Below, piece after piece: positions 32,601 to 41,600 of a stretch of DNA of 64,000 nt. The DNA comes from Escherichia coli (GTDB lineage Bacteria > Pseudomonadota > Gammaproteobacteria > Enterobacterales > Enterobacteriaceae), in the NCBI RefSeq assembly GCF_044647545.1, contig NZ_CP172818.1, one strand, 5' to 3'. Position 1 is the first letter of the stretch. Every line of letters begins with the position of its first letter. The position numbers were made by a program.

Positions 32601-35600
32601 GCCGCTCGGCCCTAAATAGGTAACGCGCGCGCCCTGGTCAAATGCGGCAACTTCGAAAGAGCAACGGGTACGAGTCGAGTCTTTTTCGAAGATGAGCGCG
32701 ATGTTTTTACCGGTAAGCTTCTGTACTTCCTTGCCATTTTTTTTATCGGCTTTGAGCTGTGCGGCAAGGGTCAGCAGAGAAGTGAACTGTGCAGGGGTAA
32801 AGTCGAGCAGTTTCAGAAAGTGTTTTTTGTATAAATCGGACATTTTATCCTCGCATGGCGAACGCCACTTATTGAATTAAAATTCACTTTATATGTGTAA
32901 TTATTCATTTGCAACCCCATTTCACAATTCTTTCTTACAAAGGTGGAGGCAAACCCGTCCGTGTGTGAAAATAATCGTATCTGCCTCCGATTCTCTGCAG
33001 AAGCAGAAAGACATTGGATCGAATTCTACAACCAGGTCGAGTCAGAAATGAGAATGATTGGCCTTCTTTATGATTTTAAGGATTATGCTTCTAAAATGGC
33101 GGAGAACATGGCGAGGCTTGCTGCCTTACTTCATTACTTCAGCGGTGATGGAGGCGATATATCTGTTACCGGGTAATGACTCCAACTTACTGATAGTGTT
33201 TTATGTTCAGATAATGCCCGATGACTTTGTCATGCAGCTCCACCGATTTTGAGAACGACAGTGACTTCCGTCCCGGCCTTGCCAGATGTTGCCTCAGATT
33301 CAGGTTATGCCGCTCAATTCGCTGCGTATATCGCTTGCTGATTACGTGCAGCTTTCCCTTCAGGCGGGATTCATACAGCGGCCAGCCGTCCGTCATCCAT
33401 ACCACGACCTCAAAGGCCGATAGCAGGCTTAGAAGACGCTCCAGCGTGGCCATTGTGCGTTCACCGAAAACGTGCGCAACGACCGTCCTCCGGAGCCTGT
33501 CATACGCGTAAAACAGCCAGCGCTGGCGCGATTTAGCCCCGACGTATCCCCACTGTTCGTCCATTTCCGCGCAGACGATGACGTCACTGCCCGGCTGTAT
33601 GCGCGAGGTTACCGACTGCGGCCTGAGTTTTTTAAATGGCGGAAAATCGTGTTGAGGCCAACGCCCATAATGCGGGCGGTTGCCCGGCATCCGACGCCAT
33701 TCATGGCCATATCAATGATTTTCTGGTGCGTACCGGGTTGAGAAGCGGTGTAAGTGAACTGCAGTTGCCATGTTTTACGGCAGTGAGAGCAGAGATAGCG
33801 CTGATGTCCGGCGGTGCTTTTACCGTTACGCACCACCCCGTCAGTAGCTGAACAGGAGGGACAGCTGATGGAAATAGAAGCCACTGGAGCACCTCAAAAG
33901 CACCGTCATACACTAAATCAGTAAGTTGGAAGCATCACCGAATTTTCAGCCCGGATGTTTCACGTACCTATGTCGAATATCTGGCCGATAAGGTTGCGGA
34001 TCGAGAAGAGGATGCAGAGGAATATCTGGAAGCAATCATGGAGGCTCGTGTTACCGTTGCTGGCATGGGGCTGGTGATGGAGGTGCAGGATTACTTCGAT
34101 GGCGAGGCCGATAGACTGGCGAAGGCGTGGCTGGCCGAGTACACACCGCAAATCAAGTCGTTGAAAGATGAGCGTAAAGAGGCCTATCGTCAAATCGTCG
34201 AAATGAGTACCGAACCGCAGGATGTGGATCTGGTCAGGCCGGCGAACAAGTTTGAAATGACCAGGGTGCGTGAAGGTGAAAAGGAAGCTGACCTTCCAGT
34301 CTGGAAACACCATTTGTTGTGTGACGAAAGCGGGAACTATCCGGCTCTGTTGAACCATTGGGAAACCAAGGTTTTTGAGATCGAAACCAAACGTGAAGGA
34401 TTTGCTTTCTGGTATCGTAATCCACAGTACACAGGGCAGTCGTCACTGGGAATCGCTTATGTTGAAGCTGAACAGTACAAGATTGTTCGTCCCGATTTCC
34501 TGTTCTTTGCCGAACAGGATGGCAAAATGGTTGTGGACCTGGTAGATCCACATAGCCTACATCTGGCTGATGCTTTGCCCAAACTGGAAGGACTTGCGCT
34601 ATATGCCGAACATCATTCTGATGCTTACAGGCGAATCGAATCTGTCGCCGAAGTAAAGGGTAAATTACGAGTGTTAGATTTGAAACGGCAGGATGTGCAG
34701 GATGCTGTTGCTACCGCTGAAAATGCAGAAACGTTATTTAGTAGCGGACTTGCTGATGACTATCAGTAATCTATAGAAAATTGCGTAACGAAACTGCATT
34801 TTAGTAATTTTTTGAAACAATACAAATAAGGCCTTCTCACTGAGAAGGCCATTACCGACTTACAGTTCGATTTGGCTACAGCCGAAGTTACGGTCTCCTT
34901 CACCAAACACTTTGCTTTCAACTTTGGTCAGGTAGTCCAGTCGGGTTAACAGCGCCTGGTAGTTCTGCTGGAAGTCAGTACTATTGGTGTCTAGCACATA
35001 CTTACAGTTTTCAGGAAAATGGACCAGACCAGGGTGATCGTCTCTCTCCAGTCTCAGGGCGCTGTACCAGGCTCCTGTGATCATCCCTCTAAGGTTATCG
35101 TCCTGATCGTAATCCCCGAGGTGGTAGTAAGCGTCTTTGTTGAACAACAGGCAAATGTGATAGTGGCATTTACCTGATTCAGAATACTCTTTCGCCCATA
35201 TAATAAATAAAGGGCAACGGTAAATGCGTTTATCCTCACGCACCTTACGGGTACGGTCAGCCTCCAGCTTAGCTCTGAGGGATTCACGCATCCGGGATAT
35301 CACCCCAGGTTCCAGGTTAGGGAAGCAACAGATATTGTCACCGTTATCAACTATTTTGGGATAGTGGAGATCGACACGTACAGCAATTAACCTAGGATAC
35401 CGGTTAGTCAAATAACATAATAATTTATTAATCTTACTCTGATATTCGAGGATATGTACTCCATGAGTACCTTGATATGTTTTCATAATATATACCTGTA
35501 TTTGGTCCTACGGTCTATAGCAGACCGTACAGGGATGCCATACAGGCAGGGCTATTCCTGGTCACTGTTGTCGGTATATACTGGTATCAGATTTTAGTAC

Positions 35601-38600: not shown

Positions 38601-41600
38601 TCAGAAACATAAGGAGTGAGAGGGATGATACGTTCACCTTCGATCTTGTCTTTAATTCGCATGCTTGACCATTTGAAATCTACGTCTGACCAGCGAAGCG
38701 ACGCAATTTCTTCACGCCGAGCACCAGTGAGCAAAAGTACTTGGAGATAGGCCGATGCAATAGGATTATTGAGGCTACGCACGGCACTAAACCAGCTTTT
38801 TAGTTGTTCCTTTTGCAGGCAATCATCAGCTTTACTCGCTGACACGGGAACCATTTTTCTTACGTTGTAATCTTGTGCCAGATCGCCAGGAATGATCCCT
38901 TGATATTTTTTCTGATAATTACTCCATTTGATGAAAGCACGTAGTAGGCGATAAGCGTGAGCAGTGACGGTAGGTCTATTTTGCCTTTCTGTACTCAGCC
39001 ACGCTGCTATGTAATCTGGGGTTAGCTCCGATAACGGCAGGTTGAGCAAACTAGCCAATGGTCCAGCCGAAGTCGGGCCTTGGCCTCTTTTTTTACTTTC
39101 GCCTCCACGACTGGACAAGTTAATGTGATCGGCAATGTATCGAGTAGAATATGGGCGTTTAGTTTTTGCACTGATACCGGTTCTCAATTCTTGAAGATAG
39201 TCTTCCCAGGCGACGGAGAAAGTCACTTTTGTTTTACGTGATTCTGCCTGCAGGGATTCTGCTTCTGCGATTTTTACAGCCTTAGCAATTCGTGGATCTA
39301 TCCCTGTATCGATCAATGTTTGTAACCGTCTTGCCTCGGCTCTCGCATCATCAATCTTCCAGTCGTTAATGTTGCCAATAGTCATGCGAAGGGTTTTCCC
39401 CGCATATACGCTTTGGAATACAAAGGCTTTTGCTCCGCTAGTTGCTCGGCATGCCAGGGTTGTTACATCTGCATCCCAAAGAAAAGTTTGTTTTTTCCCT
39501 TCCGGTAAGGTGAATCTGCGAAGTCTTTCGAAGGTAAATTTTTGTCTTGAAAGCGCCATTTTTCGGCTCCAGTTGAGAATTGCTGTCTTACAATAATGTA
39601 ACTGCTGGTGTAAGTAAATGGAGGGAATAAACATCAACTTTTGTTAATTTCAATCAACGGGTTTATTGCTATAACTTGGTGTTTTATAATATAAAGTATG
39701 TTGTTTTGATTGATTGCTCAAGTAGTTAAAAATGCATTAACATCGCATTCGTAATGCGAAGGTCGTAGGTTCGACTCCTATTATCGGCACCATTAAAATC
39801 AAAGAGTTACCCCATATTTAAATACACCACGTTTCCTCCTGTGCCGTATTTGTGCCATTGTAACCTTGGCAATTCATCAAAATACTGTTCTGACATCAGG
39901 CAGTGCAGGTGCAGACATTTAAGCCAATTGCTGCCGCCATTCTTTGACGTAGTCAATCAGGGCGCGGAGCTTTGGTGCAATATTGCGACGCTGTGGGAAA
40001 TACAGATAGAAGCCCGGAAATTGTGGAAGAAAGTCATCAAGCAGCGATACAAGCTTACCGCTTTCAATATATGGCCTGAAAGTTTCCTGAGTGGCAATTG
40101 TTATTCCTCCGCCGGCAAGAGCCAGCCTCAACATCAGACGCAGATCATTAGTCGTAATCTGCGGTTCAATCGCAAGGTCGAAAGTTCTCCCGTTTTCTTC
40201 AAATGGCCAGCGATAAGGCGCAACCTCCGGGGACTGACGCCAGCCGATACACTTATGGGTATTTCCCCCGGAGGCGAGAAAGCACTCTCCACGCCCGGCC
40301 GCAAGGATCAGGACGACGGGGGCAGGCATGAATCCTCCTCCTGATGGAGACGTACAGAGGCGACTTCTGCCAGCACGGAGAGTGCCAGAGTATGCGCATC
40401 CCGGGCTTTGGGGAATATCCCGACGGGTGCCCGGATTTGCGTTGTTTCCTCCCTGGACCATCCCAGCTCGTGGAGCTTTTGCAGACGTAACGTGTGGGTT
40501 CGATAGCTGCCCAATGCGCCGAGATAAAAGGGTTTTGCTTCTCGCGCGGCCTGCAACACTGGCAGCTCCCGGTTGAGATCATGGCACAGCAAAATGACCG
40601 CCGTATCGGTATCGATCTGAGCGCTGGCTGAGGCCGGAAAAAGATCGAAGATATGGCTGTCATAGCCTGTGGCTGCTGCAAGACTCGCGGTTGCCTGCGC
40701 CTCAAGAGAACGTCCGTAAATCATCAGCCTGACGCATGGCCTGAACCCCACCTCAAAGCCATTGAGATTCCAGCCCGTCCGGGTTTGCGTGGGCAGGCAC
40801 ACCAGCGATTGTGCTTGCGGATCGTAGCGCAGCCCCACCGGTTTTCTCTGTTCCAGGCGGTTCAGCACGGCGAGCAGAGGCTGTGCCGAGCGTAGTTTAT
40901 GGAGCGTCAGCGTGATCCCACCGCCGCAGGGCAGAACGATGTCAAACCACGGCGAACCTTCGCCATAGCGAATTTCGCGATCGCGGCCTGAGCCCATCAT
41001 CTCCAGCGCTTCAAAAGCGGCAGCGGCCTCCACGCAGCCGCCAGAGACAAAACCGCAGTAACGACCATCTTCGCGCACCACCATCTGCGCCCCGAGCGGG
41101 CGCGCCGCGCCGCCGCGTATCTCCACCAGCGTCACCAGCACCGCTCCTTTACCGGACATTAGCGCCTCTACGGCGAAGCGCAGAATGGTCCGGTGGTCAT
41201 CGGTGAGAAACGCCTGCTCTGGCTTATGCCAGTGTTCGTCTTTGTCAAAAAGCGGGTATGACATTGTTCCTCCTTAAACCACATCCGGCAGCTTATCGAG
41301 CAGCTTATCCAGAGTGATGGGATAATCCCGTACCCGAATACCGGTGGCGTTATACACCGCGTTGGCGATAGCCGCGCTCACGCCGCACAGGCCCAGCTCA
41401 CCGACACCTTTGGCCTTCATCGGGGAGGATATGGGGTCGGTATCATCCAGGAAAATCACCTCCTGTTTTGGGATATCCGCATGAACCGGCACCTCATACC
41501 CCGCCATATCGTGATTAACGAAGTAGCCCAAACGGTCATCCACCGCCAGCTCCTCCATCAGTGCCGCGCCCATGCCCATAGTCATTGCGCCAATGACCTG

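What the first reader, a model, noticed from the sequence alone, without database searches (positions are those of the whole stretch)
33940..39637. Integrase-proximal AT-rich module (yagJ-yagK-yagL-yagM-alpA-like-yagN-intF) has a satellite-like layout and no assigned function
Next to the P4-type integrase lies an AT-rich block of six genes, five of them on the integrase strand: yagN, an AlpA/Xis-like 74 aa protein, yagM, a resolvase-like HTH protein (yagL) and yagK (a family annotated elsewhere as inovirus Gp2-like). The order int, alpA-like, then small unknown genes is what P4-like satellites and phage-inducible chromosomal islands show in their regulatory and replication modules. None of these products has a recognisable catalytic function from sequence, so this is the most plausible place in the window for uncharacterised mobile-element or anti-phage biology. 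The whole island is otherwise IS-ridden, so the module may be inert.
Basis: inference. Interest (0 to 1): 0.6.

Follow-up and report, generated by a model that had tools for sequence, protein, structure and literature searches.

The report
Core mobility module of CP4-6 island
This stretch is the conserved backbone of a common family of bacterial genomic islands: an integrase, an excision factor, DNA-binding helpers and a previously unassigned DNA-nicking (HUH) enzyme. Relatives carry anti-phage genes just downstream of it, which makes the unknown way such islands copy and move testable in E. coli K-12.

Summary

The block is not a defence system, and it is not a P4-like or PICI satellite, because no hijack, packaging or primase genes are present.

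It is the conserved integrase-proximal core of tRNA/tmRNA-integrating islands found across Enterobacterales. The order is integrase, small accessory gene, AlpA/Xis-like HTH, then either YagM+YagL or a DUF3987 helicase (never both), then always YagK.

- **YagK** is not featureless. It has invariant HxH and YxxK motifs, and a confident model matches HUH Rep nucleases (Helraiser, parvovirus NS1, AAV Rep, RepB).
- **YagM** has a ribbon-helix-helix domain plus a novel domain.
- **YagL** is a catalytically degenerate serine recombinase with an HTH.
- **yagJ** is an IS1-truncated remnant of a Type III restriction subunit. In relatives, that slot downstream of yagK holds Druantia, Wadjet, Lamassu, Avs, Gabija/Qat and others.
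- **An 86-nt non-coding block** upstream of yagK is more conserved than yagK itself, with a fixed 51-nt motif spacing.

Published qPCR shows that CP4-6 excises, so the module is not inert.

Best model (inferred): after IntF/YkgV excision, YagK nicks at the conserved block to replicate or transfer the circle.

The parts
39716..39796 (+). attR / ptwF: displaced copy of the thrW 3' end. The ~50-nt direct repeat lies at 39744-39796 and is preceded by a degenerate tRNA-like 5' half.
   Evidence: The sequence is identical to thrW 5441-5493. The Rfam tRNA model matches 39716-39789 at 45.5 bits. ARAGORN calls no tRNA here.
38234..39637 (-). intF: P4-type tyrosine integrase.
   Evidence: Pfam Arm-DNA-bind_3 and Phage_integrase. 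phrog_1 integrase, 1.9e-40. The R / HxxR / H boxes (GARREEIA, HGLRRSFGT, GHKP) align to a tyrosine recombinase. CP4-6 excision has been measured (PMC3105296).
37677..38117 (-). yagN: small accessory protein of unknown fold. It always accompanies IntF-type integrases, and its stop codon overlaps the ykgV start by 4 nt.
   Evidence: No hit in Pfam, NCBIfam, PHROGs or PADLOC. Distribution is narrow, 13 clusters. It is syntenic with IntF and YkgV in L008-L011, L030, L031, L033 and L034.
37456..37680 (-). ykgV: AlpA/Xis-like MerR-type HTH protein, the presumed excision directionality factor and/or activator.
   Evidence: Pfam HTH_17, 3.5e-6. phrog_66 'excisionase and transcriptional regulator', 1.4e-6. 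The best PDB similarity is the TorI excisionase, but it is weak, E 0.38.
36483..37337 (-). yagM: ribbon-helix-helix DNA-binding domain (about residues 38-105) plus a C-terminal alpha/beta domain with no match outside its own family.
35758..36327 (-). yagL: degenerate serine-recombinase fold plus a C-terminal HTH. These coordinates use the probable true start M44; the annotated ORF runs to 36456.
   Evidence: NCBIfam Mpi invertase 7.9e-11, far below the curated cut-off. phrog_125 DNA invertase 4e-8. In an alignment with gamma-delta resolvase and Hin, R8, D67 and R68 are replaced in all members; the S10 and R71 positions are each lost only in one relative, L010.
35663..35748 (-). Conserved 86-nt non-coding block: motif 1 (TAATTGCAGAGT), short inverted repeat CAGCC-N6-GGCTG, motif 2 (TGTTGGATAGGTATTATA). 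It is a candidate yagK promoter/operator and/or the HUH nick/origin site.
   Evidence: It is present upstream of YagK homologues in 36 distinct sequences, whether the preceding gene is yagL or DUF3987. It is more conserved than yagK DNA, for example 0.89-0.93 against 0.63-0.65. The motif spacing is 51 nt in 30 of 34 loci. A sigma70-like TTTAGA-16-TATAAT lies at 35690-35663. Each motif occurs only once in the window.
35487..35662 (-). Variable leader between the conserved block and the yagK ATG. It contains three inverted repeats, including TACTCTTACT/AGTAAGAGTA and ACGGTCT/AGACCGT.
   Evidence: The region is conserved within the YagL-type islands and is shorter or absent in the DUF3987-type islands.
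34860..35486 (-). yagK: HUH-superfamily (Rep-class) endonuclease and the invariant last gene of the module.
34830..34850 (-). Terminator-like hairpin closing the module, between the convergent yagK and yagJ genes.
   Evidence: Perfect 10-bp inverted repeat GGCCTTCTCA/TGAGAAGGCC followed by a T-rich tail on the minus strand.
34038..34769 (+). yagJ: 3' remnant of a cargo gene, a Type III restriction-enzyme Res-like helicase-nuclease, truncated by IS1. It belongs to the cargo, not to the core module.
   Evidence: 91% identical to residues 618-860 of an 860-aa protein in L040. That protein has ResIII and Helicase_C domains and PADLOC REase_III hits, and it sits next to an MTase_III gene, 2.5e-289. 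Strain 0H18 has a longer 395-aa version, also IS1-cut.
32967..33170 (+). ykgS: fragment of a DUF3987 (YfjI-like helicase) gene. This is the alternative partner of YagK in sister islands, stranded beyond IS1.
   Evidence: RefSeq annotation: 'DUF3987 domain-containing protein, incomplete'. Full-length DUF3987 proteins match phrog_2373 DNA helicase, 7e-115.
5415..5493 (+). attL: intact thrW (tRNA-Thr CGT), whose 3' end is the other copy of the direct repeat, at the far end of the island.
   Evidence: ARAGORN; sequence.

Best explanation
The block intF-yagN-ykgV-yagM-yagL-yagK, together with the conserved non-coding element upstream of yagK, is the maintenance and mobility core of a CP4-type integrative island. 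It is not a cargo or defence function.

Shown or well supported:
- IntF is a P4-type tyrosine integrase acting on the thrW 3'-end repeats, and the island excises in K-12.
- YkgV is an AlpA/Xis-type HTH protein.
- YagK is an HUH (Rep-class) nuclease by motifs and fold.
- YagM is an RHH DNA-binding protein with an extra domain.
- YagL is a serine-recombinase relic that keeps only DNA binding.
- The module is conserved across genera, and defence cargo is inserted just downstream of yagK.

Inferred mechanism:
1. YkgV, perhaps with YagN, turns IntF towards excision.
2. On the excised circle, YagK nicks at or near the conserved 86-nt block and becomes covalently attached through Y185.
3. This primes rolling-circle replication, which amplifies the island and/or yields single-stranded or concatemeric DNA that a helper (a phage, or a conjugative system) carries to a new cell.
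4. YagM and YagL would bind the block as origin-recognition or regulatory partners. They fill the place that a DUF3987 5'-3' helicase fills in sister islands.

In K-12 the module is intact but kept nearly silent by Rho-dependent termination in yagNM.
For: Identity and boundaries.

YagK as an HUH nuclease:
- HxH and YxxK are invariant in 36 homologues.
- Pfam REP_ORF2-G2P covers the HUH strand.
- The model is confident, pLDDT 87.

YagM as RHH.

YagL as catalytically degenerate.

Conserved synteny in 37 species-representative loci:
- YagK is preceded by YagL (15 loci; YagM too in 14 of them) or by DUF3987 (16 loci), never both.
- Of the 30 loci with at least 5 kb of upstream sequence, 24 have an AlpA-like gene and 21 an integrase within 8 kb.

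DUF3987 as a helicase: phrog_2373, 7e-115, and biochemistry in PMC11724360.

The cis element is under stronger constraint than the gene and has a rigid 51-nt spacing.

The cargo slot holds defence systems.

Literature:
- CP4-6 excises at 1-27 per 1e5 cells (PMC3105296).
- Pseudomonas tmRNA islands with int, alpA, a Gp2-like gene, RadC and defence cargo are transduced by a jumbo phage (bioRxiv 10.1101/2024.08.29.610337).
- PICMI satellites with int-alpA-DUF3987 replicate by rolling circle once AlpA is expressed (PMC10803314).
- A Rho terminator lies in yagNM (PMC4150792).
Against: - No nicking, replication or transfer has been shown for YagK or any homologue.
- The conserved block contains a sigma70-like promoter and could be only a promoter/operator. 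Its inverted repeat is short, and DNA-fold z-scores are not significant (mean -0.87).
- No helicase, primase, packaging or coupling gene is present in CP4-6.
- This exact variant is rare in E. coli outside the K-12 lineage: about 18 diverged copies among 5426 genomes.
- YagK homologues do not occur on small rolling-circle plasmids. The 67 plasmid records with a match are mostly large conjugative plasmids, where YagK looks like a passenger.
- The only 'phage' hit is an unverified 4.5-kb contig of low coverage.
Confidence: 0.55

Rival explanations
1. Integrative mobilisable element. YagK is a Rep-like relaxase, the conserved block is an oriT, and YagM is the RHH relaxosome accessory protein. The excised island would be transferred as single-stranded DNA by a co-resident conjugative plasmid or ICE, rather than being amplified for phage transfer.
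For: - The distal arm of the island encodes an anti-restriction protein, RadC and a DUF932 protein. By general knowledge, these gene types are common in leading regions of conjugative elements.
- 42 of the 67 plasmid records with a YagK homologue are conjugative.
- Rolling-circle-replicase-type relaxases (MOB_T) exist.
Against: - The motif order HUH then Tyr is that of the Rep class, not of the classical Mob class (established knowledge).
- There is no coupling protein and no known MOB family hit.
- The experimentally studied relatives (I55 family, PICMI) move by phage.
- The DUF3987 helicase alternative points to replication.
Confidence: 0.2
2. In K-12 the module is a functionally inert relic. 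Only IntF/YkgV-mediated excision survives, and YagK, YagL, YagM and YagN no longer do anything. The conserved block is just the yagK promoter.
For: - The island is IS-ridden and its cargo rearranged.
- yagJ and ykgS are fragments.
- yagNM is silenced by Rho.
- YagL has lost catalytic residues.
- No helper-related genes are present.
Against: - All five ORFs are full length, and K-12 YagK keeps every family-invariant residue.
- YagL's degenerate state is shared by all relatives, so it is the functional form and not K-12 decay.
- The decayed state looks different: in C. amalonaticus L022, intF, yagM and yagK are each split.
- The island excises.
Confidence: 0.15
3. The yagK-yagN genes themselves form an unrecognised anti-phage defence system. 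For example, an HUH nuclease could attack phage DNA under the control of HTH and RHH regulators.
For: - They lie in an island family that carries defence genes.
- They include a nuclease and several DNA-binding proteins.
- ykgV gives a weak PADLOC hit to mad1, 3e-4.
Against: - YagJ, YagK, YagM, YagN and IntF have no PADLOC hit. YagL and YkgV give only marginal HTH-region matches, E 3e-4 to 7e-3.
- These genes are the invariant backbone next to the integrase, while the recognised defence systems vary downstream of them.
- YagM-YagL is interchangeable with a replicative-type helicase.
Confidence: 0.05
4. A bona fide P4-like or PICI phage satellite that redirects a helper's capsid.
For: P4-type integrase followed by an AlpA-like gene. 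The element's historical name is 'cryptic P4-like'.
Against: - No Psu/Delta/Sid, epsilon, alpha primase, capsid-morphogenesis or terS gene is annotated or detected in the island. These are the defining components in PMC10085698.
- The island is 34.3 kb, against a median of about 10 kb for these satellites.
Confidence: 0.04

Closest known systems
CP4-57-type islands of E. coli and their enterobacterial relatives (intA - yfjH - alpA - yfjI[DUF3987] - yfjJ)
   Same: - Same backbone logic: P4-type integrase at a tRNA/tmRNA gene, a small variable gene, an AlpA-like HTH, one replication-type slot, then a YagK/YfjJ-family HUH protein.
- The same conserved block lies upstream of the HUH gene.
- Defence or other cargo follows, and then the YkfA-type GTPase / YafZ / anti-restriction / RadC / CbtA-family toxin arm.
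   Different: - CP4-6 has YagM (RHH) plus YagL (pseudo-recombinase HTH) where those islands have the DUF3987 helicase. The two solutions never co-occur.
- IntF lies next to the displaced tRNA fragment, not next to the intact tRNA.
- That CP4-57 itself has this order is from my own knowledge. The order was verified here on L037, L038 and L041.
I23/I44/I55 tmRNA genomic islands of Pseudomonas (Zhao et al., bioRxiv 10.1101/2024.08.29.610337)
   Same: Tyrosine integrase, alpA, an 'inovirus Gp2-like' gene, an HTH protein, RadC, defence cargo, and no recognisable transfer genes.
   Different: - Different genus and gene arrangement: there alpA and the Gp2-like gene are at the 3' end, far from intY.
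- I55 was shown to be transduced by a jumbo phage. Nothing comparable is known for CP4-6.
- Homology of the Gp2-like proteins to YagK was not tested here.
PICMI satellites of Vibrionaceae (PMC10803314)
   Same: - Order int - small gene needed for excision - alpA - small gene - replication gene - defence gene.
- AlpA is TorI/Xis-like and sufficient for activation.
- Replication is by rolling circle.
   Different: - PICMIs are about 6 genes long, integrate next to fis, and are defined by a DUF3987/DUF5906 'primase'.
- CP4-6 has only a DUF3987 fragment and is 34 kb.
- PICMIs have no HUH protein.
Rolling-circle replicons with a cop-rep cassette (pMV158 CopG-RepB) and HUH Rep proteins of parvoviruses and CRESS-DNA viruses
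   Same: An RHH protein gene lies upstream of an HUH Rep gene, with a structured non-coding region beside it. The motif order is HUH then catalytic Tyr. The fold matches RepB, AAV Rep and NS1.
   Different: - YagK is encoded in a chromosomally integrated 34-kb island, not in a small plasmid or virus.
- YagM carries an extra 170-aa domain.
- A pseudo-recombinase gene sits between the two.
- No origin has been demonstrated.
P4-like satellites and PICI (SatelliteFinder definitions, PMC10085698)
   Same: P4-type integrase followed by an AlpA-type regulator, and location at a tRNA gene.
   Different: All helper-hijack and packaging components and the primase-replicase are missing.

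Membership tests
P4-like satellite (7 core components, PMC10085698) | Integrase | tested here: met
   IntF: Arm-DNA-bind_3 and Phage_integrase domains, phrog_1.
P4-like satellite (7 core components, PMC10085698) | AlpA-type regulator | tested here: met
   ykgV: HTH_17 and phrog_66.
P4-like satellite (7 core components, PMC10085698) | Psu-Delta-Sid capsid-hijack operon | tested here: not met
   Nothing of the kind appears in the RefSeq annotation of the whole island, nor in PHROG scans of the module and distal-arm proteins.
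P4-like satellite (7 core components, PMC10085698) | Epsilon/Ash and the alpha primase-helicase | tested here: not met
   Neither is annotated or detected. The only helicase-type sequence is the 68-codon DUF3987 fragment ykgS.
PICI (5 core components, PMC10085698) | Integrase and alpA/merR/stl regulator | tested here: met
PICI (5 core components, PMC10085698) | Primase-replicase, capsid-morphogenesis gene, small terminase | tested here: not met
   None found in the annotation or in the PHROG scans.
PICMI (PMC10803314 model) | int + alpA (PF05930 or PF12728) | tested here: met
   IntF, and ykgV as PF12728.
PICMI (PMC10803314 model) | prim (DUF3987 or DUF5906) co-localised with int and alpA | tested here: not met
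   CP4-6 has YagM-YagL in that slot, and only a DUF3987 fragment 3 kb away beyond IS1. The feature is met in sister islands L034, L037, L038 and L041.
PICMI (PMC10803314 model) | Integration next to fis; helper-phage induction | tested here: not met
   Integration is at thrW. Induction by a helper phage cannot be tested with these tools.
HUH endonuclease superfamily, Rep class (for YagK) | HUH motif (His-hydrophobic-His) on a beta strand | tested here: met
   H108-Y-H110 followed by ICLLF is invariant in 36 sequences. It lies on strand E107-116 of the model.
HUH endonuclease superfamily, Rep class (for YagK) | Catalytic Tyr (YxxK) on a helix downstream of the HUH motif | tested here: met
   Y185, K188 and K192 are invariant and lie on helix H172-187.
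HUH endonuclease superfamily, Rep class (for YagK) | HUH fold | tested here: met
HUH endonuclease superfamily, Rep class (for YagK) | Site-specific nicking with a 5'-phosphotyrosine adduct at a cognate origin | not testable with these tools
   Needs biochemistry. A candidate site exists.
Serine recombinase (for YagL) | Catalytic Ser10 with R8, D67, R68 and R71 (gamma-delta resolvase numbering) | tested here: not met
   R8 becomes I/M, D67 becomes S and R68 becomes C in all members. The S10 and R71 positions are each lost only in L010.
Serine recombinase (for YagL) | Overall homology and a C-terminal HTH | tested here: met
   NCBIfam Mpi 7.9e-11, Pfam Resolvase 9.5e-4, HTH_7/Sigma70_r4.
Ribbon-helix-helix (CopG/Arc/MetJ) proteins (for the YagM N-terminus) | Beta strand followed by two helices, with RHH-like sequence | tested here: met
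Type III restriction-modification, Res subunit (for yagJ) | ResIII helicase plus a C-terminal domain, encoded next to a Mod methyltransferase | tested here: not met
   Only the last 243 of 860 codons remain in K-12, and no mod gene is present. It is a remnant, not a member.
Known anti-phage defence systems (PADLOC-DB 2.0) | Match of the module proteins to any defence model | tested here: not met
   No hit for YagJ, YagK, YagM, YagN or IntF. YagL (CARF3, E 1.9e-3 and 6.8e-3) and YkgV (mad1 3e-4, PDC-M06B 6.4e-3) give only weak matches on their HTH regions.
Integrative mobilisable element | Relaxase of a known MOB class and an oriT | not tested
   No CONJscan or oriT library was available. YagK belongs to no named MOB family as far as NCBIfam and Pfam show.

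The most novel reading that the evidence does not exclude
YagK/YfjJ proteins and the rigidly spaced 86-nt element beside them would form a previously unrecognised HUH-nuclease origin system. This system would be the common replication or transfer engine of the large class of 'non-autonomous' tRNA/tmRNA defence and pathogenicity islands of Enterobacterales (the CP4-6, CP4-57 and SRL-PAI type). It would have two interchangeable accessory solutions: an RHH protein plus a pseudo-recombinase, or a DUF3987 helicase. That would explain how these islands are amplified and handed to helpers, and it could be studied directly in E. coli K-12.
Probability: 0.35. Interest if true: 0.75.

Novelty: new variant of a known kind. 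Interest (0 to 1): 0.5.

Why it matters
Islands of this architecture carry much of the anti-phage, virulence and resistance cargo of enterobacteria. Recent surveys still say that the way most such genomic islands move is unknown (bioRxiv 10.64898/2026.01.13.699239; 10.1101/2024.08.29.610337).

This analysis gives the backbone a concrete enzymatic candidate, an HUH nuclease, and a candidate cis site. It also shows a clean modular swap between YagM-YagL and the DUF3987 helicase.

Five y-ome genes of K-12 thereby become a testable model for island replication and transfer. The work also marks the position just downstream of yagK as a defence-gene hotspot that can be mined. For K-12 itself the finding is modest: the cargo is degraded and the module is silenced.

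Tried and rejected
- **PDB sequence searches.** The YagK profile found nothing useful. For YagL and IntF, phmmer gave no informative structural relative; the IntF match only showed the recombinase boxes.
- **YagN.** No family, domain or defence hit, and a narrow distribution.
- **Rfam.** Scanning 32800-40200 gave only the ptwF tRNA-like hit, so the conserved block is not a known RNA family.
- **Hairpin stability of the block.** DNA folding against shuffles gave a mean z of -0.87, so I do not claim a stable hairpin.
- **Extra copies of the block motifs.** I looked for second copies elsewhere in the window, such as HUH-type element ends. There are none.
- **YagK on small plasmids or phages**, which would have supported an autonomous Rep role. 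Plasmid hits are mostly large conjugative plasmids. The single phage hit is an unverified, low-coverage 4.5-kb contig, most likely host DNA.
- **The search for related loci.** It was repeated with 12 closer sequences, so the survey is biased towards Enterobacterales relatives of at least about 37% identity.
- **Considered and rejected:** a defence system encoded by the module itself, and membership of P4-like, PICI or PICMI (see the membership test).

Full report
**1. What is there**

The window is E. coli K-12. Positions 33901-40000 are 100% identical to MG1655, and RefSeq annotates IS1, yagJ, yagK, yagL, yagM, ykgV, yagN and intF, followed by a truncated LysR gene and paoD.

ORF coordinates, strands and sizes match the finding. 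GC is 0.33-0.47 across 34500-40000 and 0.55-0.71 on both sides.

The only tRNA called in the window is thrW at 5415-5490. Its last ~50 nt recur as a direct repeat at 39744-39796, just outside intF. Rfam's tRNA model even matches 39716-39789 end to end, which corresponds to the pseudo-tRNA ptwF.

The island is therefore about 34.3 kb, running from thrW to ptwF. intF sits at the end distal to the intact tRNA. The annotation of the whole island gives this order:
- intF-yagN-ykgV-yagM-yagL-yagK;
- an IS-ridden cargo: yagJ, IS1, the ykgS fragment, argF, xynR, yagEFGH, yagA/B, afuBC, mmuPM, IS5, the reverse-transcriptase remnant ykfC, IS30 and perR;
- a distal arm, all on the intF strand: ykfA (GTPase), yafZ (DUF932), ypjK, yafY, ykfB, ykfF, yafX (anti-restriction), ykfG (RadC), ykfH and yafW-ykfI (toxin-antitoxin).

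**2. The proteins**

- **IntF** has Arm-DNA-bind_3 and Phage_integrase domains and matches phrog_1. Its R, HxxR and H boxes align with a tyrosine recombinase.
- **YkgV** matches HTH_17 and phrog_66, 'excisionase and transcriptional regulator'. Its best, though weak, PDB similarity is the TorI excisionase.
- **YagN** matches nothing and is narrowly distributed. Its stop codon overlaps the ykgV start by 4 nt.
- **YagK** matches Pfam YagK_YfjJ_C (1.5e-67) and, weakly, REP_ORF2-G2P over residues 85-121. Many homologues carry both families in the precomputed Pfam table.
  - In an alignment of 36 homologues down to 37% identity, the invariant residues include H108 and H110 (an HUH motif, 'HYHICLLF'), Y185, K188 and K192 (a YxxK motif), E100, R37 and D39.
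  - The AlphaFold model is confident: pLDDT 87.1, pTM 0.84.
  - The order HUH then Tyr is that of Rep-class HUH enzymes (established knowledge). From memory, the E-8-H-x-H...Y spacing resembles MVM NS1; I did not test this.
- **YagM** has no Pfam-A hit in the library used, although newer Pfam lists PF27701. A full HMMER scan of 1.84 billion representatives found only 37 relatives.
  - The C-terminal alpha/beta domain matches nothing outside the family.
- **YagL** aligns with gamma-delta resolvase and Hin but has lost R8, D67 and R68 in all members. The S10 and R71 positions are each lost in one relative, L010, and the HTH is kept. It is a pseudo-recombinase, most likely a DNA-binding protein. 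In relatives it is called as 189 aa, starting at K-12 residue M44.
- **YagJ** is 91% identical to residues 618-860 of an 860-aa protein. That protein has ResIII and Helicase_C domains and PADLOC REase_III hits. In Escherichia sp. ESNIH1 it lies beside a Type III methyltransferase, 2.5e-289. yagJ is thus an IS1-truncated restriction-subunit remnant and belongs to the cargo.

**3. Conservation of the arrangement**

Contigs that encode YagM homologues show two arrangements:
- int - (reverse gene) - AlpA - YagM - YagL - YagK, next to ssrA, in Klebsiella oxytoca and Citrobacter koseri;
- IntF - YagN - YkgV - YagM - YagL - YagK, in other E. coli.

A scan of one genome per species returned 37 loci with a YagK relative, from 20 or so genera of Enterobacterales plus Aeromonas. 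I called ORFs, searched them with profiles of the module proteins, and clustered all products.

The results:
- The full IntF-YagN-YkgV-YagM-YagL-YagK order recurs in Winslowiella, Erwinia and Enterobacter. A decayed copy is in Citrobacter amalonaticus.
- The gene directly upstream of YagK is YagL in 15 loci (with YagM as well in 14 of them) or a ~470-aa DUF3987 protein in 16 loci. The two never occur together, and six mostly decayed or truncated loci have neither.
- Three upstream sets combine freely with either solution: IntF-YagN-YkgV; a second P4-type integrase with a reverse ~250-300-aa gene and AlpA; and that integrase with a Fic-domain gene, a 337-aa gene and a 78-aa AlpA-like gene (phrog_2790).
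- Of the 30 loci with at least 5 kb of upstream sequence, 24 have an AlpA-like gene and 21 an integrase within 8 kb.

The DUF3987 protein matches phrog_2373 'DNA helicase' at 7e-115. A DUF3987 protein has been shown to be a 5'-3' helicase that acts with an element's primase-polymerase (PMC11724360). K-12 carries a DUF3987 fragment, ykgS, on the far side of IS1.

Within E. coli the YagM-YkgV-YagN variant is rare. It occurs in 336 of 5426 complete genomes, 321 of them at least 99% identical (the rows sampled are K-12-lineage or laboratory strains), leaving about 18 diverged copies.

**4. A conserved cis element**

An intergenic region of 135-506 nt always precedes yagK. Its first 86 nt (window 35663-35748, minus strand, starting 10 nt after the yagL stop) are conserved whether the upstream gene is yagL or DUF3987.

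Identity of this block to K-12 is 0.85-0.93 in loci whose yagK DNA is only 0.63-0.67 identical. It is 0.63-0.73 where yagK DNA is about 0.60.

Two motifs are almost universal: TAATTRCAGAGT and TGTYGGAWAGKTAWTATA. The distance between them is exactly 51 nt in 30 of 34 loci, even where the sequence between them differs.

A short inverted repeat (CAGCC-N6-GGCTG in K-12) sits at about the same place, with a different sequence in divergent subfamilies. It is weak thermodynamically, with a mean z of -0.87.

A sigma70-like TTTAGA-16-TATAAT overlaps motif 2. Neither motif recurs in the window, and no Rfam family matches.

The block is real and under constraint. Whether it is a promoter/operator, the HUH target, or both, is unresolved.

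**5. The cargo slot**

Immediately downstream of yagK, relatives carry:
- QatABCD, Gabija and PD-Lambda-4;
- Druantia DruF, Wadjet JetC, PDC-M16A, Shango SngA, PDC-M40B, Lamassu LmuB and Avs1b, which is 7 of the 10 large cargo proteins sampled;
- a TrlF/Ppl ATPase in other E. coli, and Type III R-M.

The module proteins themselves give no convincing PADLOC hit, only marginal HTH-region matches for YagL and YkgV. In K-12 only the yagJ relic remains.

**6. What is known**

- CP4-6 excises at 1-27 per 100,000 cells in growing K-12 (PMC3105296), so the recombination part works.
- Rho terminates within yagNM (PMC4150792). yagM, yagN, yagL and intF transcripts respond to loss of RpoZ (PMC5811629).
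- The five genes are still listed as uncharacterised (PMC11551758).
- Pseudomonas tmRNA islands with intY, alpA, an inovirus Gp2-like gene, RadC and defence cargo lack all known transfer genes. One of them is transduced by a jumbo phage as a satellite.
- PICMI satellites have the order int-iolg-alpA-up1-prim(DUF3987)-up2. They are activated by AlpA and replicate by rolling circle.
- SatelliteFinder defines P4-like satellites by int, Psu, Delta, Sid, AlpA, epsilon and alpha. It defines PICI by int, regulator, primase-replicase, capsid-morphogenesis gene and terS. CP4-6 has only the first two of each.

**7. Mechanism**

Shown:
- integrase, att repeats and excision;
- HUH motifs and fold of YagK;
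- the RHH domain of YagM;
- the degenerate YagL;
- conserved synteny and the modular swap;
- the conserved cis block;
- the defence cargo slot.

Inferred:
1. YkgV, perhaps with YagN, directs IntF to excise the island.
2. YagK nicks the circle at or near the block and primes rolling-circle replication and/or ssDNA production.
3. YagM and YagL act as origin-binding or regulatory partners, in place of the DUF3987 helicase of sister islands.
4. A helper then moves the DNA.

I put 0.55 on this model as a whole. Confidence is higher, about 0.8, that the block is the island's backbone module rather than cargo. It is lower, about 0.35 against 0.2, for phage-linked amplification against conjugative mobilisation. 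The rivals are listed separately.

**8. Verdict**

The block is a known cryptic element whose integrase-proximal genes turn out to be the conserved core of a widespread island family. It includes an HUH nuclease and a conserved cis site that, as far as the searchable literature shows, have not been described for these islands.

It is not a known satellite type and not a defence system. I class it as a new variant of a known kind and give it moderate interest, 0.5. It is modest for K-12 itself, but a useful handle on how such islands replicate and move.

Noticed in passing
window 34038-34769 (+); L040:6651-9233 (-): yagJ is only the C-terminal 28% of a Type III restriction Res-like helicase-nuclease. 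The intact 860-aa gene sits beside a Type III methyltransferase and a SIR2-like gene in Escherichia sp. ESNIH1 and in a MAG.
   Followed up: yes
window 32967-33170 (+): ykgS is a fragment of a DUF3987 helicase gene, which is exactly the alternative partner of YagK in sister islands. It lies beyond IS1 next to argF. This suggests either that a second CP4-type module once lay here or that IS1-mediated rearrangement moved it.
   Followed up: partly
window 39716-39796 (+) and 5415-5493 (+): The Rfam tRNA model matches the ptwF region end to end (45.5 bits) although ARAGORN calls nothing there. intF adjoins this displaced copy rather than the intact thrW, the opposite of the ssrA-int arrangement in Klebsiella and Citrobacter relatives.
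   Followed up: partly
window 35663-35748 (-): An 86-nt non-coding block upstream of yagK is more conserved than the gene across genera. Its two motifs are spaced exactly 51 nt apart in 30 of 34 loci. Its function is unresolved: promoter/operator, HUH origin, or both.
   Followed up: partly
window 37677-38117 (-): YagN has no detectable family or domain and always travels with IntF-type integrases. Its stop overlaps the ykgV start (ATGA). Its position recalls the excision-essential 'iolg' gene of PICMI.
   Followed up: partly
window 25000-32500: The yagE-yagH / xynR / argF cargo is 56-71% GC, in sharp contrast to the 33-47% GC module. The island is thus a mosaic of at least two foreign origins.
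   Followed up: no
L051:23768-24859 (window about 15.0-16.1 kb, ykfC): A truncated reverse-transcriptase gene (phrog_1423, 7e-123) lies in the CP4-6 cargo next to IS5.
   Followed up: no
L024:5432-6064, L019, L020, L026, L035, L036, L048: In one island subtype a Fic-domain gene (PADLOC candidate system PDC-S04, 5.5e-90; NCBIfam 'mobile mystery protein B') directly follows the integrase. After it come an unknown 337-aa gene and an AlpA-like gene.
   Followed up: partly
L009:6372-7581: In one E. coli genome a lambdoid prophage integrase abuts the same thrW att core right next to intF. This indicates tandem occupancy of the site.
   Followed up: no
H1 (XL1-Blue) and H57 (ER1821R) in E. coli genomes: Some K-12 laboratory derivatives carry an IS5 insertion inside the module. 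In ER1821R the match is split in two pieces around the IS5, and the annotation shows two 'DNA-binding protein' pieces.
   Followed up: no
L052 (OR844780.1, 4468 bp): The only 'phage' record with a YagK homologue is an unverified, low-coverage contig from a phage preparation. It is probably host island DNA, but packaged island DNA cannot be excluded.
   Followed up: partly
L022:11921-16086: Citrobacter amalonaticus carries a decayed copy of the same IntF-type module, with intF, yagM and yagK each split by frameshifts. It shows what real decay of this module looks like, in contrast to the intact K-12 copy.
   Followed up: no
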